A stretch of DNA of 13,714 nucleotides from a virus (taxonomy: Duplodnaviria > Heunggongvirae > Uroviricota > Caudoviricetes): IMG/VR virus record IMGVR_UViG_2693429599_000004; one strand, given 5' to 3'. A model generated the notes under the pieces. That model did no database searches, was not told the origin of the DNA, and saw nothing but the letters and a program-made list of their open reading frames with translations. The stretch's first letter is position 1; each line of letters opens with the position of its first letter. Position numbers and translations under genes: made by a program. This document shows, piece by piece, positions 6,711-7,665 of the stretch.

Positions 6711-7184
6711 TTATTTCAGGCACTGAGTGCGGATATAGTCCTGTGCCCCTTCCAGTTGCTTGTGCATCGTCATCAGCCGCTCTCTGAGGGTGAAATAATC
6801 CCGTGTAACGGTGTCTGCCAGTTGGGGGCCGGTTGCATTATCCACGCCGGAGGTGGTGGGGGCTTCACGCACGGAGCCTGGACAGGTGGCGTTGATCCGC
6901 AGGCGCTTACGACCAGCGGCAACATCAGCGCGCAGAGTTTCATTTTCAGCTCTCGCATCGGATAATTCCCTCGAGTATTTTGCATCGAGCGCAGCAACAT
7001 CGCGCTGGCGCACCTGCATATCAGTAATGGTTGCGTTCGCCAGCTTCAGTTCACTGGCTTTGTTATCGCGCTGCGCTTTGTAGGTAATCGCGTTATCACG
7101 GTAATGGTCTGTTGCCATCCACAGCGCACCACAGGCCACCAGCAGAATAACGATAAACGCGGAAAGCATTCGGTTTATGTTCAC
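6711..7184 (-). CDS. Rz: Rz i-spanin (inner-membrane spanin subunit)
   Basis: [47 protein letters not shown] match lambda Rz from memory. Track start 7184 is GTG overlapping the upstream stop; the first ATG is at 7169. Confidence 0.9.
6773..6958 (-). CDS. Rz1: Rz1 o-spanin lipoprotein, embedded in the +1 frame of Rz
   Basis: [22 protein letters not shown]...[30 protein letters not shown] matches lambda Rz1 (lipobox LVV-C, polyproline). Start chosen at ATG 6958 by analogy to the 60-aa lambda Rz1. Confidence 0.8.
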
Positions 7185-7312
7185 CCCAGCAACCCCGACG
7201 AAGACAACATCATCCAGGCCATGGAAAGAAAAAGAGCAACCAGCATTAGTGAAAATGAAATGCCGACAATTACACAGAGGATCTTCGCCAGCGTTATGAG
7301 TTTGTCTGACAT
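7181..7312 (-). CDS. Small single-pass membrane protein (43 aa) between endolysin and Rz
   Basis: ATG at 7312 with GGGAGG SD at 7-nt spacing. [43 protein letters not shown] is one hydrophobic helix. Stop (7181-7183) overlaps the Rz GTG (7182-7184). Confidence 0.45.
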
Positions 7313-7326
7313 GCTTAATCCTCCCT

Positions 7327-7509
7327 TCACGATTTCAACGCAATGACCAGTTTTGCCAGCCCATACAGCATCGGGGACACAGCAACACCGACCGCCACCC
7401 ACTTAATGGCAAAAGCCAGTGCTCTGCTGATGTCATCAGTTACAGGCGCTTTCAGTTCAAGGCCATTTTTCATAGTCAACCTCAACAGAATTCGTTTATA
7501 CTTCGCCAT
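7327..7509 (-). CDS. Small protein (60 aa) with basic N-terminus and hydrophobic C-terminal segment, between endolysin and Rz
   Basis: ATG at 7509 preceded by [66 protein letters not shown]. Ends 15 nt before the next SD. The longer track ORF starts at a GTG. Confidence 0.35.
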
Positions 7510-7542
7510 GTTCTCCCTTGCCTTACTCAAGGTCAGAAACAC

Positions 7543-7575
7543 AAAACCCCGCTTGGTGCCAACAAACGGGGTTTT
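7543..7575. terminator. Hairpin with flanking A/T runs (possible bidirectional terminator or RNA processing structure) between R and the small ORFs
   Basis: AAAACCCCG-15 nt loop-CGGGGTTTT followed by TACTTTT; 5-bp GC core extended by A:T pairs. The loop is long for a canonical terminator. Confidence 0.35.
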
Positions 7576-7665
7576 TACTTTTATTCACTTACGTTTCGCC
7601 AGTTCGCAGGATTTCGTGTTATCCGCCCGCGTGGCCATACCTTATTTTTCAGCAAAATATTCTGC

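What the first reader, a model, noticed from the sequence alone, without database searches (positions are those of the whole stretch)
7181..7580. Two small membrane-protein ORFs inserted between endolysin and Rz, coupled to the spanin genes
R and Rz are separated by about 480 bp. The space holds a 60-aa ORF and a 43-aa single-helix hydrophobic ORF, each with a GGGAG-type SD. The 43-aa ORF's stop overlaps the Rz GTG start at 7182-7184, although Rz may instead start at the ATG at 7169, 12 nt downstream. A hairpin with flanking A/T runs precedes them. They could be extra lysis components such as an antiholin or spanin modulator, or a small membrane toxin.
Basis: seen in the sequence. Interest (0 to 1): 0.5.

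Follow-up and report, generated by a model that had tools for sequence, protein, structure and literature searches.

The report
Small membrane-protein genes before spanin
The two small ORFs between the endolysin and spanin genes of this E. coli prophage are real, conserved, uncharacterised single-helix membrane-protein genes, and they belong to a shuffled set of such mini-genes that many related prophages carry at this spot; what they do is still unknown.

Summary
On the minus strand lie SAR endolysin R (8199..7666), a GC hairpin with A/T runs (7575..7543), ORF60 (7509..7327), ORF43 (7312..7181) and Rz/Rz1. The ORF43 stop overlaps an Rz GTG start (GTGA).

Both ORFs are real genes. The ORF60 transmembrane module has pN/pS 0.12, against 0.87 and 4.7 in the other frames. 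ORF43 is always 43 codons, with a conserved N-terminal half (pN/pS 0.40). ORF43 DNA is in 1659 of 5426 complete E. coli genomes. No Pfam, NCBIfam or PADLOC family matches. PHROGs lists both as unknown, and I found no paper describing them.

The new point is the context. Across lambdoid prophages, the space from the conserved hairpin to Rz holds a shuffled array of one to four small single-helix ORFs, in at least four sequence types with hybrids. The last ORF always ends at the Rz start. ORF60 relatives sit before Rz in cassettes with different holins and endolysins. They also occur, each behind a hairpin, in tail and head gene regions, which is moron-like behaviour.

Function is inferred only. 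My best guess is late-expressed inner-membrane accessory proteins that tune lysis. Superinfection exclusion and a type I toxin-like lock are live rivals.

The parts
7666..8199 (-). SAR-type endolysin R. It forms the upstream border of the insertion.
   Evidence: PF00959 at 2.8e-25 and phrog_7 endolysin. The hydrophobic N-terminus LSAAVLALIAIGAPAP has a KD19 of 1.88.
7576..7665 (-). Non-coding spacer after R. It is fast-varying except for the conserved motif AAGTGAATAAAAGTAAAA at 7590..7573.
   Evidence: About 27 variable sites fall in this spacer among 40 unique sequences, against about 10 in the 183-nt ORF60. The motif is shared by all array classes.
7543..7575 (-). GC-rich hairpin flanked by an A-run and a T-run. 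It looks like a bidirectional intrinsic terminator and is the conserved left border of the small-ORF array.
   Evidence: Terminator scan. RNAfold gives -19 to -21.5 kcal/mol in five sequence variants, including two with multiple compensatory stem changes. Salmonella versions have different stem sequences. The antisense side has the longer U-tract.
7327..7509 (-). ORF60: [60 protein letters not shown]. It has a basic N-terminal extension, an internal Met13 (ATG at 7473, own GAGG SD) and a C-terminal transmembrane helix. This is the 'C' module of the array.
   Evidence: pN/pS is 0.12 for the last 32 codons, against 0.87 and 4.7 in the other frames. Codons 3-13 give 0.17, but the sequences for that estimate were selected by pattern, which biases it. 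Homologues of 60 aa occur in Salmonella enterica and E. marmotae. Distant relatives keep the extension and Met13. It matches phrog_1115/4493/3246, all unknown function. AF2 gives helices 3-15 and 23-59.
7181..7312 (-). ORF43: [43 protein letters not shown]. It is a single very hydrophobic helix and is the 'B' module of the array.
   Evidence: The ORF is always 43 codons. The N-terminal 26 aa are conserved and the C-terminal 17 are variable. pN/pS is 0.40 for codons 1-26, against 0.92 and 0.80 off-frame; codons 27-43 are not distinguishable from off-frame. The DNA is in 1659 of 5426 complete E. coli genomes. It matches phrog_4906, unknown function. AF2 gives helix 2-38 at pLDDT 88.
6711..7184 (-). 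i-spanin Rz. The GTG at 7184 overlaps the ORF43 stop (GTGA). The alternative ATG is at 7169.
   Evidence: PF03245 at 7e-47 and phrog_13. The in-frame 'NR' before the ATG aligns with 'MNR' of the other Rz allele. The 'MLSAF' Rz allele occurs only when ORF43 directly precedes it, in 24 of 24 cases.
6773..6958 (-). o-spanin Rz1, embedded in the +1 frame of Rz. Sequence begins [20 protein letters not shown]..., with a lipobox.
   Evidence: The ORF is listed. The same 61-aa product is seen in related loci.
7473..7502 (+). Antisense sigma-70-like promoter match (TAGTCA-18-TATACT) inside ORF60 codons 3-13, pointing at the hairpin. It is hypothetical.
   Evidence: Scan hit at 9 of 12 matches. Promoter-like elements lie at the homologous place in divergent relatives: TTGTCA-18-TATACT, TAGTCA-18-TATAAT and TTGGCC-16-TATACT. 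It cannot be separated from protein-level constraint, and no RNA data were available.

Best explanation
ORF60 and ORF43 are genuine small inner-membrane proteins encoded inside the late (lysis) operon of a lambdoid prophage. They are one arrangement (C60-B43) of a modular, recombining array of one to four single-helix mini-genes. The array fills the space between a conserved bidirectional terminator hairpin after the endolysin gene and the start of the i-spanin gene Rz.

Proposed working (inferred):
1. The hairpin stops ordinary transcription. No sense-strand promoter follows it, so the array would be reached only by Q-antiterminated late RNA polymerase.
2. Ribosomes translate ORF60, from Met1 and possibly also Met13, and then ORF43.
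3. Ribosomes terminating at the ORF43 stop re-initiate at the overlapping GTG of Rz (GTGA). Spanin synthesis would thus be coupled to the mini-genes.
4. The peptides insert as single helices in the cytoplasmic membrane together with the pinholin, the SAR endolysin anchor and the Rz anchor.

My committed guess is that they are dispensable modulators of the membrane stage of lysis. They might affect timing or robustness of holin triggering or SAR release, or spanin anchoring. I do not think they are essential lysis effectors.

Shown: gene reality, membrane-helix character, array modularity, the linkage and overlap with Rz, and the absence of a promoter-like site. Inferred: late-only expression, coupling, and above all the lysis-modulating role.
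For: Coding:
- pN/pS in the annotated frame is 0.12 (ORF60 TM module) and 0.40 (ORF43 N-terminal half). The other frames are near or above 1.
- ORF43 has an invariant 43-codon length across 19 DNA variants.
- Full-length ORF60 occurs in Salmonella.

Membrane:
- Hydropathy maxima of 1.9-2.9 and long predicted helices.

Operon position:
- The promoter scan finds no sense-strand site between R and ORF60. A terminator-like hairpin lies directly upstream, conserved with compensatory changes.

Linkage to Rz:
- In every locus with enough flank, the last mini-ORF ends 0-10 nt from the Rz start. Examples are GTGA, TGAAATG, TGATATG and TGAGGGGGATATG.
- ORF60 or ORF43 relatives precede PF03245 Rz in cassettes with five different holin/endolysin sets: P21 holin with SAR lysozyme, two holins with M15 peptidase and Ant, holin_2_3 with lysozyme, holin_3_1 with a 138-aa protein, and lysozyme alone.

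Modularity:
- At least 8 arrangements occur among about 124 loci sampled through the hairpin-flank motif, plus C/D hybrids.

Precedent for non-essential membrane proteins that tune lysis next to endolysin or spanin genes:
- P1 LydD (PMC9025707) and Mu gp25 (PMC9239132).
- P2 LysA (my own knowledge).
Against: - No experiment or expression data exist. Function is inferred from position.
- The R-Rz gap also accepts clearly non-lysis genes: Ant and a DNA methyltransferase.
- ORF60-family units also sit after tail-fibre genes, before a tape-measure-like gene and before a portal-like gene. That fits general morons better than lysis specialists.
- Related cassettes work with other modules or none.
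- Nonsense, frameshift and fusion variants of individual modules occur.
- The C-terminal 17 codons of ORF43 show no clear coding constraint.
- The association of the 'MLSAF' Rz allele with ORF43 can be plain physical linkage.
Confidence: 0.4

Rival explanations
1. The mini-genes are morons that benefit the lysogen. They are small inner-membrane proteins made from the prophage that block DNA entry or another membrane step of superinfecting phages, in the manner of HK97 gp15. Their place next to Rz is just a tolerated insertion site.
For: - Moron-like distribution: ORF60-family units occur at four different intergenic sites of late operons. One lies exactly where HK97 carries gp15, between tail chaperone-like and tape-measure-like genes.
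- Fast combinatorial turnover and a variable ORF43 C-terminus, as expected for arms-race genes.
- The gap also hosts other accessory genes, Ant and a methyltransferase.
- The array stays intact in this window's defective prophage, which has lost most structural genes.
Against: - No promoter-like site lies between the hairpin and the first ORF, and a terminator sits directly upstream. Expression in a lysogen is therefore not expected. HK97 gp15 has the opposite layout, with the ORF first and the terminator after it.
- There is no sequence relation to gp15 or to any PADLOC model.
- The tight start/stop coupling to Rz would co-express spanins.
Confidence: 0.25
2. Each hairpin plus small ORF unit is a type I toxin-antitoxin-like lock. 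A constitutive antisense RNA starts from a promoter inside the first codons of ORF60, runs across its ribosome-binding site and ends at the bidirectional hairpin. It silences leaky synthesis of a membrane-damaging peptide until late transcription overwhelms it.
For: - A plus-strand match TAGTCA-18-TATACT lies at 7473-7502.
- Promoter-like elements sit at the homologous position in divergent units, sometimes improved: TTGTCA-18-TATACT, TAGTCA-18-TATAAT and TTGGCC-16-TATACT. This holds even where the peptide there has diverged.
- The hairpin has its better U-tract on the antisense side.
- A hairpin precedes the small ORF in every genomic context seen. An antisense terminator would explain that.
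- Small hydrophobic single-helix peptides are the typical type I toxin.
Against: - The promoter score is modest (9 of 12) and such hits are expected by chance at about 3 per 2.3 kb.
- The hexamers lie in codons under protein constraint (K-Y, L-T-M), so their conservation is not independent evidence.
- One unit (L221 unit 1) has no such site, and units led by other modules have only weak ones.
- There is no Rfam family here, and no sense promoter for a toxin mRNA.
- The papers I read on EHEC prophage sRNAs place their sRNAs elsewhere.
Confidence: 0.1
3. The peptides have little function of their own. Whatever ORF lies last before Rz is kept mainly because it restores the translational coupling that Rz lost when the hairpin and other DNA were inserted between R and Rz.
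For: - In cassettes without an insertion, the endolysin and spanin genes overlap directly (K-12 Qin).
- In every array class the last ORF, whatever its sequence, ends at the Rz start. The terminal codons often double as a Shine-Dalgarno-like GGTGG or GGGGG.
- Even the inserted methyltransferase gene overlaps the Rz start.
- The ORF43 C-terminal codons are unconstrained.
Against: - Strong purifying selection on the ORF60 TM module, which is not the last ORF here (pN/pS 0.12).
- Constraint on the ORF43 N-terminal half.
- All modules are membrane helices rather than arbitrary peptides.
- Arrays of up to four ORFs are more than coupling needs.
- Family members also occur away from Rz.
Confidence: 0.1
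4. The ORFs are chance open frames in an intergenic remnant.
For: Short ORFs are common in the window: 37 of at least 30 aa in 3 kb. The 33-aa ORF embedded at 7436..7335 persists in relatives without being selected (pN/pS 0.87).
Against: Frame-specific purifying selection, invariant lengths, Shine-Dalgarno sites, retention across E. coli and Salmonella and across cassette types, and thousands of intact copies.
Confidence: 0.02

Closest known systems
Accessory membrane proteins of phage lysis cassettes: P2 LysA between endolysin K and the spanin genes lysB/lysC, and P1 LydD in the lyz operon
   Same: These are small or modest integral membrane proteins encoded next to the endolysin and spanin genes, co-expressed late, and not needed for lysis itself. 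They shape its timing or mode (P1: PMC9025707; P2 LysA: my own knowledge). P2 LysA occupies the same gene position as the ORFs here, between endolysin and i-spanin.
   Different: There is no sequence similarity. LysA has several transmembrane segments and LydD is a pinholin, whereas the proteins here are single helices of 28-60 aa. Here there is a variable array of unrelated modules rather than one fixed gene. A lysis phenotype has not been tested.
Mu gp25 releasin (DUF2730 / PF10805)
   Same: It is a single-pass membrane protein in a lysis region with a SAR endolysin and acts on a membrane-anchored lysis protein (PMC9239132).
   Different: gp25 is 99 aa, N-out/C-in, with a 73-aa acidic cytoplasmic domain and the DUF2730 signature. 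ORF60 and ORF43 have no Pfam hit and almost no soluble domain. ORF43 also occurs with a non-SAR M15 endolysin.
HK97 gp15 moron (superinfection exclusion protein)
   Same: It is a 62-aa single-helix membrane protein inserted between two late genes that are adjacent in related phages. An ORF60-family unit sits at the equivalent tail-chaperone/tape-measure position in one metagenomic contig.
   Different: It is not homologous. In the gp15 record the ORF is followed by an annotated terminator, and it is reported to be expressed from the prophage (my recollection of Cumby et al. 2012). Here the hairpin is upstream, no promoter is seen, and the last ORF is coupled to Rz.
Type I toxin-antitoxin modules (for example SymE/SymR and Zor/Orz, with an antisense RNA over the 5' end of a small toxin mRNA)
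   Same: There is a small hydrophobic peptide, a candidate cis-antisense promoter within the 5' codons, and a terminator placed to end an antisense RNA of about 80 nt covering the ribosome-binding site.
   Different: No antisense RNA has been demonstrated. There is no toxin promoter. The ORFs lie inside a phage late operon and are coupled to the next gene. There is no similarity to any known toxin family.
Dual-start holin/antiholin genes (lambda S107/S105, phage 21 S71/S68)
   Same: ORF60 and its distant relatives keep two in-frame Met codons, each with its own Shine-Dalgarno site. The longer form adds positive charge at the N-terminus of a membrane protein.
   Different: The extension is 12 residues with about five positive charges, not 1-3 residues. 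The protein has one helix and no charged C-terminal tail. There is no holin family hit. The cassette already has a P21-type holin at about 9463-9680.

Membership tests
Rz/Rz1 two-component spanin (for the downstream genes) | An i-spanin with an N-terminal membrane anchor and the PF03245 periplasmic domain, plus an embedded lipoprotein o-spanin in the +1 frame. | tested here: met
   PF03245 at 7e-47 and phrog_13 at 4e-73. The embedded ORF carries the lipobox LVVSAC.
Holin / antiholin | Match to a holin family model, at least one TMD, and a highly charged hydrophilic C-terminal tail. | tested here: not met
   No Pfam, NCBIfam or PHROG lysis-category hit for ORF60 or ORF43. The ORF43 C-terminus is uncharged, and ORF60 ends ...ALKS. 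Two in-frame starts exist in ORF60, but with a 12-residue spacing.
Holin / antiholin | Lethal membrane permeabilisation, or delay of holin triggering, when expressed. | not testable with these tools
   This needs expression and lysis-curve experiments.
Releasin (Mu gp25, DUF2730) | The DUF2730 signature over the whole length, an N-out/C-in single TMD, and an acidic cytoplasmic domain of about 70 aa. | tested here: not met
   No PF10805 hit at E<=1. The proteins are 43 and 60 aa with no acidic soluble domain.
Phage moron | A DNA segment present between two genes that are adjacent in related phages. | tested here: met
   The endolysin and spanin genes overlap in K-12 Qin. The gap content differs among relatives. 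Family members occur at other intergenic late-operon sites.
Phage moron | Own promoter upstream, own terminator downstream, and expression from the repressed prophage. | tested here: not met
   There is no sense-strand promoter-like site, and the only terminator-like hairpin is upstream of the ORFs. Expression itself was not testable.
Type I toxin-antitoxin | A small hydrophobic toxic peptide plus a cis- or trans-encoded antisense RNA that blocks its translation. | tested here: inconclusive
   The peptide character is met. An antisense promoter-like site and a suitably placed terminator are present in 5 of 7 units examined, with a non-homologous site in a sixth. The site is confounded by coding constraint. 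There is no Rfam hit. Toxicity and the RNA are untested.
Known anti-phage defence proteins (PADLOC models) | Similarity to a model of a described defence system component. | tested here: not met
   No hit at E<=1 for ORF60, ORF43 or three other array modules.
PHROG families phrog_1115/4493/3246 (ORF60) and phrog_4906 (ORF43) | Significant profile match over the full length. | tested here: met
   E-values are 2.6e-42 and 2.1e-23. All of these families are annotated 'unknown function'.

The most novel reading that the evidence does not exclude
The hairpin-to-Rz interval is a dedicated exchange site for a pool of mobile 'hairpin + mini membrane gene' units. Each unit carries its own antisense-RNA lock: a promoter in the first codons and the bidirectional hairpin as terminator. 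This would be a type I toxin-like safety device built into phage late operons. Its peptides depolarise or remodel the inner membrane to set or diversify the lysis clock, and its rapid module shuffling reflects conflict between co-resident prophages.
Probability: 0.12. Interest if true: 0.75.

Novelty: new variant of a known kind. Interest (0 to 1): 0.5.

Why it matters
Lysis by lambdoid phages is usually described as holin, endolysin and spanin. About a third of complete E. coli genomes, including O157:H7 and other pathogens with Stx-type prophages, carry one or more extra membrane mini-genes wedged in front of the spanin gene, and nobody appears to have tested them.

If they tune lysis timing, they would affect burst size and, in Stx phages, the timing of toxin release. 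If they are exclusion or toxin-like genes, they add a widespread, compact class of prophage-encoded membrane effectors.

Some modules are not annotated at all. The 32-aa 'IRWW' ORF is present in 899 of the complete E. coli genomes, and the five records listed show only the spanin ('lysis protein') under the match. The locus is therefore also a concrete case of missed small proteins.

Tried and rejected
- **Domain and family searches.** Pfam, NCBIfam and PADLOC gave nothing for the small ORFs. PHROGs returned only 'unknown function' families.
- **Remote homology.** An ORF60-family profile against 1.84 billion representatives found only 21 proteins, all small relatives. This gave no link to a characterised family.
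- **Genome-per-species scan for ORF43.** It returned a single 328-bp contig labelled Xanthomonas pisi, probably contamination. I treat ORF43 as essentially restricted to E. coli.
- **ORF43 as a duplicated Rz membrane anchor.** BLASTP found no alignment.
- **ORF43 related to ORF60.** hhalign probability was 5%.
- **HK97 gp15 homology.** The sequences are unrelated.
- **Known RNA element at the hairpin.** Rfam found nothing in 6700-8200 at E<=1.
- **Sense-strand promoter for the array.** The scan found none. By eye, only the L090 class has TTGACA and TATAAT, and they are at a non-functional 13-nt spacing.
- **The embedded 33-aa ORF (7436..7335) as the real gene.** Its frame has pN/pS 0.87, against 0.12 for the ORF60 frame.
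- **Literature.** Searches on lysis cassettes of Stx and lambdoid phages, spanin diversity, releasin, P1 holins, EHEC prophage sRNAs and the RefSeq accessions of these proteins found no description of the ORFs.
- **Fold search.** I did not run it, because single helices give no informative matches.
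Full report
**1. What is in the window**

The lysis genes lie on the minus strand. Upstream are a P21-type holin (within 9463..9783, PF04971) and a DUF1327 protein. The order then runs as follows:

- Endolysin R at 8199..7666: 177 aa, PF00959, with a weakly hydrophobic SAR-like N-terminus.
- A 90-nt non-coding spacer.
- A 13-bp GC-rich hairpin at 7575..7543, with an A-run before it and a T-run after it (RNAfold -18.9 kcal/mol).
- ORF60 at 7509..7327, with AAGGGAG before the ATG.
- ORF43 at 7312..7181, with GGGAGG 7 nt before the ATG.
- Rz at 7184 or 7169..6711 (PF03245, 7e-47), with Rz1 embedded at 6958..6773.

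The ORF43 stop TGA overlaps a GTG that opens the longest Rz frame (GTGA). The first ATG of that frame is 15 nt further on.

The window as a whole is a decayed lambdoid prophage. It has a truncated terminase and a truncated J. It also carries Lom, a tail fibre gene and an NleB/SseK effector gene.

**2. Are the ORFs genes?**

The window alone cannot say, because short ORFs abound: 37 of at least 30 aa in 3 kb. Comparative data are clear.

- **Spread.** The 431-bp interval matches 2115 of 5426 complete E. coli genomes. In 1006 of them the match covers at least 80% of the interval. RefSeq annotates two hypothetical proteins there. ORF43 DNA alone is in 1659 genomes. The exact proteins sit on about 1000 contigs each.
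- **ORF43.** Across 19 distinct DNA versions it is always 132 nt. Residues 1-26 are nearly invariant and residues 27-43 vary.
- **ORF43 selection.** Pooled pairwise pN/pS for codons 1-26 is 0.40 in frame, against 0.92 and 0.80 in the other frames. Codons 27-43 give 0.70, which is not distinguishable from the off-frames.
- **ORF60 selection.** The last 32 codons give 0.12 in frame, against 0.87 and 4.7 off-frame.
- **ORF60 in other species.** Full-length 60-aa ORF60 occurs in Salmonella enterica and E. marmotae at 78-88% identity.
- **Embedded ORF.** A 33-aa ORF in another frame of ORF60 (7436..7335) persists in relatives. It is not under selection, so it is not the gene.
- **Structure.** Both proteins are predicted helical. 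ORF43 is one helix at 2-38 (pLDDT 88). ORF60 has a short helix at 3-15 and a long one at 23-59. Hydropathy is in the transmembrane range.
- **Caveats.** The pN/pS values pool non-independent pairs. The estimate for the ORF60 N-terminal extension (0.17) used sequences selected by a pattern, so it is biased.

**3. The larger picture: a shuffled array**

I sampled loci without regard to ORF content, through the conserved motif next to the hairpin (AAGTGAATAAAAGTAAAA). This gave about 124 intervals from hairpin to Rz. They fall into at least eight arrangements built from a few module types:

| Module | Sequence or description |
|---|---|
| A (31 aa; 44-45 aa in long form) | ...WKFLLVWSIPFLWVVSQLIVAIKG |
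| A' (32 aa) | MAEKLSTWKFILIWLVFVIMASGYFIGQIRWW |
| B | ORF43 |
| C | The ORF60 module, seen as 60-, 48-, 47- and 38-aa forms |
| D (28 or 37 aa) | ...AFAIRIVAIAVLVWAIRWW |
| Further types | Found in one class |

| Arrangement | Count in sample |
|---|---|
| A'-Rz | about 34 |
| C-B-Rz (the window's) | about 30 |
| A-B-C-D-Rz | 24 |
| C-D-Rz | 7 |
| A-B-Rz (A usually with a nonsense codon) | 6 |
| D-Rz | 3 counted, plus about 8 that my Rz pattern missed |

Two further loci have a 311-aa DNA methyltransferase between B and Rz.

Other findings on the array:

- **One superfamily.** C and D belong together. Distant relatives share MKNGLExDAP...AFAI(K/R)...TM, ending in either ...ALKS or ...AIRWW. 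Natural C/D hybrids exist.
- **Narrow family.** A profile search of 1.84 billion representative proteins found only 21 members.
- **Other genes in the gap.** Ant antirepressor genes can share it.
- **No array.** K-12 Qin has none, and its endolysin and spanin genes overlap.
- **Decayed modules.** Nonsense, frameshift and fusion-to-Rz variants occur at low frequency.

**4. What stays constant**

Two things do.

First, the hairpin. It precedes the first mini-ORF in every class. It keeps its pairing through compensatory changes in E. coli variants, and it has entirely different stem sequences in Salmonella.

Second, the junction with Rz. Whatever ORF is last ends 0-10 nt from the Rz start, as in GTGA, TGAAATG, TGATATG and TGAGGGGGATATG.

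The Rz allele that begins ...NRMLSAF, which has the GTGA overlap, is found only when ORF43 is the immediate neighbour (24 of 24). This may be simple linkage.

ORF60 or ORF43 relatives lie directly before a PF03245 Rz in cassettes with five different holin/endolysin combinations. The constant neighbour is therefore the spanin gene, not the SAR endolysin.

**5. What argues against a purely lysis-specific role**

ORF60-family units, each again behind a GC hairpin with A/T runs, also occur at three other kinds of site:

- After a tail-fibre assembly gene in Salmonella contigs.
- Between tail-chaperone-like and tape-measure-like genes, together with an A-like ORF, in one metagenomic contig.
- Twice in tandem before a portal-like gene in another metagenomic contig.

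The roles of the flanking genes in the two metagenomic contigs are my reading of their sequences and were not tested. This is how morons behave. HK97 gp15, a 62-aa single-helix exclusion protein, sits at the same chaperone/tape-measure position. It is unrelated in sequence, and its terminator is downstream rather than upstream.

**6. Mechanism**

Shown:
- The small ORFs encode membrane-type helices.
- They lie inside the late operon.
- A terminator-like hairpin lies directly upstream.
- No sigma-70-like site on the sense strand lies between R and ORF60.
- The stop of the last ORF and the start of Rz overlap.

Inferred:
- The array is transcribed only by Q-modified polymerase that reads through the hairpin.
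- Rz translation is coupled to ORF43.
- ORF60 may be made in two forms. Met13 has its own GAGG site. The basic 12-residue extension and Met13 are both kept in distant relatives such as MRQYKRILMRLTMKNG, MTVYRKTFRLRISMNAG and MKLYRKFFRMRLSMKDG.

The A modules show the same layout, with a conserved M(I/F)DFSKLIRE(L/I)R(L/V)M extension.

I commit, at about 0.4, to the peptides being dispensable inner-membrane modulators of the lysis step. The basis is late co-expression with the membrane-anchored lysis proteins and the constant spanin linkage. It also rests on precedent from P2 LysA (own knowledge), P1 LydD (PMC9025707) and Mu gp25 (PMC9239132).

The main rival, at about 0.25, is a lysogen-benefit moron such as an exclusion protein. 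The distribution and turnover favour it. The lack of a promoter and the upstream terminator count against it.

**7. The antisense idea**

On the plus strand, TAGTCA-18-TATACT (7473-7502) lies inside ORF60 codons 3-13 and points at the hairpin. The hairpin's antisense side has the better U-tract.

Promoter-like elements lie at the homologous place in divergent units:
- TTGTCA-18-TATACT in a Salmonella unit.
- TAGTCA-18-TATAAT in a metagenomic unit.
- TTGGCC-16-TATACT in the tail-fibre-linked variant, whose peptide there has diverged.
- A non-homologous site in a similar position in one further unit, and none in another.

An antisense RNA of about 80 nt covering the Met1 ribosome-binding site would explain why a hairpin always precedes these ORFs. 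It would resemble a type I toxin-antitoxin lock.

The evidence is weak. The hexamers overlap constrained codons, such matches are common by chance, Rfam has nothing there, and no RNA data were available. I rate it at about 0.1. It remains the most novel reading left open.

**8. Comparison with what is known, and verdict**

The ORFs are already in databases as hypothetical proteins. Their PHROG families are all marked unknown function. I found no paper that discusses them or the array.

They are not members of holin, releasin (DUF2730), known defence or known toxin families by the tests available. They meet the positional definition of a moron. They do not meet the promoter-ORF-terminator layout.

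I classify the finding as a new variant of a known kind: accessory small membrane proteins in phage late operons. Its unusual features are the combinatorial array, the upstream bidirectional hairpin and the obligatory junction with the spanin gene. Interest is moderate (0.5). The locus is very widespread, partly unannotated and experimentally easy to test, but its function remains conjecture.

Noticed in passing
window 12303-12492 (-), 13192-13265 (-), 13369-13441 (-): There is an Rfam STnc100 sRNA match (132 bits, E 1.5e-29) and two tRNA genes upstream of the SASA-type esterase gene (9828-11696). A 2026 preprint places prophage 'Pas' sRNAs around this esterase-holin-lysozyme block. I did not check whether STnc100 equals one of them.
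   Followed up: partly
window 92-685, 1133-2452, 2511-3110, 3177-3677, 3831-5480 (all -): These are an NleB/SseK-family effector gene, a tail fibre gene, lom, only the C-terminal receptor-binding part of J, and a terminase large subunit that starts at profile position 67. Most head and tail genes are missing, so this is a decayed lambdoid prophage of an attaching/effacing-type E. coli.
   Followed up: partly
window 8652-9458 (-) and 8328-8642 (+): Between the holin and the endolysin sits a 268-aa protein. Only its first 100 residues match DUF1327 (YdfR family, usually about 100 aa). There is also an opposite-strand 104-aa ORF with no family hit. This is a second insertion site inside the same lysis cassette.
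   Followed up: no
window 7335-7436 (-): A 33-aa ATG-started ORF ([14 protein letters not shown]...) lies embedded in another frame of ORF60. It stays open in all relatives, but its frame shows no purifying selection (pN/pS 0.87). It is probably a by-product of the ORF60 codons.
   Followed up: yes
L094 and about 34 similar loci; 899 complete E. coli genomes: The commonest alternative array is a single 32-aa ORF (MAEKLSTWKFILIWLVFVIMASGYFIGQIRWW, possibly 45 aa from an upstream GTG) that ends one base before the Rz ATG. In the five RefSeq records listed, only the spanin ('lysis protein') is annotated under the match. It looks like a widespread unannotated small gene.
   Followed up: partly
L130 and L143 (positions 417-1355 after the hairpin motif): A 311-aa DNA methyltransferase-like gene is inserted between ORF43 and Rz, and its end overlaps the Rz start. 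In L004 and L088 Ant-type antirepressor genes occupy the same gap. The R-Rz junction is a general insertion hot spot.
   Followed up: partly
L212 about 2950-3000 and L220 about 1478-1503: In Salmonella, a 24-nt insertion creates an 8-codon mini-ORF (MCREVYSL) between the original ribosome-binding site and ORF60. Its stop overlaps the new GTG start of ORF60 (GTGA). This is another layer of translational coupling.
   Followed up: no
window 5902-6087 (+): A YlcI/YnfO-family (DUF3950-like) 61-aa gene lies downstream of Rz on the opposite strand and points towards the lysis genes. It is a possible source of antisense transcription into Rz.
   Followed up: no
L085 (Xanthomonas pisi DSM 18956, 328-bp contig): This is the only hit for ORF43 in the one-genome-per-species collection. 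It is a tiny contig in a Xanthomonas assembly, at 74% identity, and is probably contaminating enterobacterial DNA.
   Followed up: no
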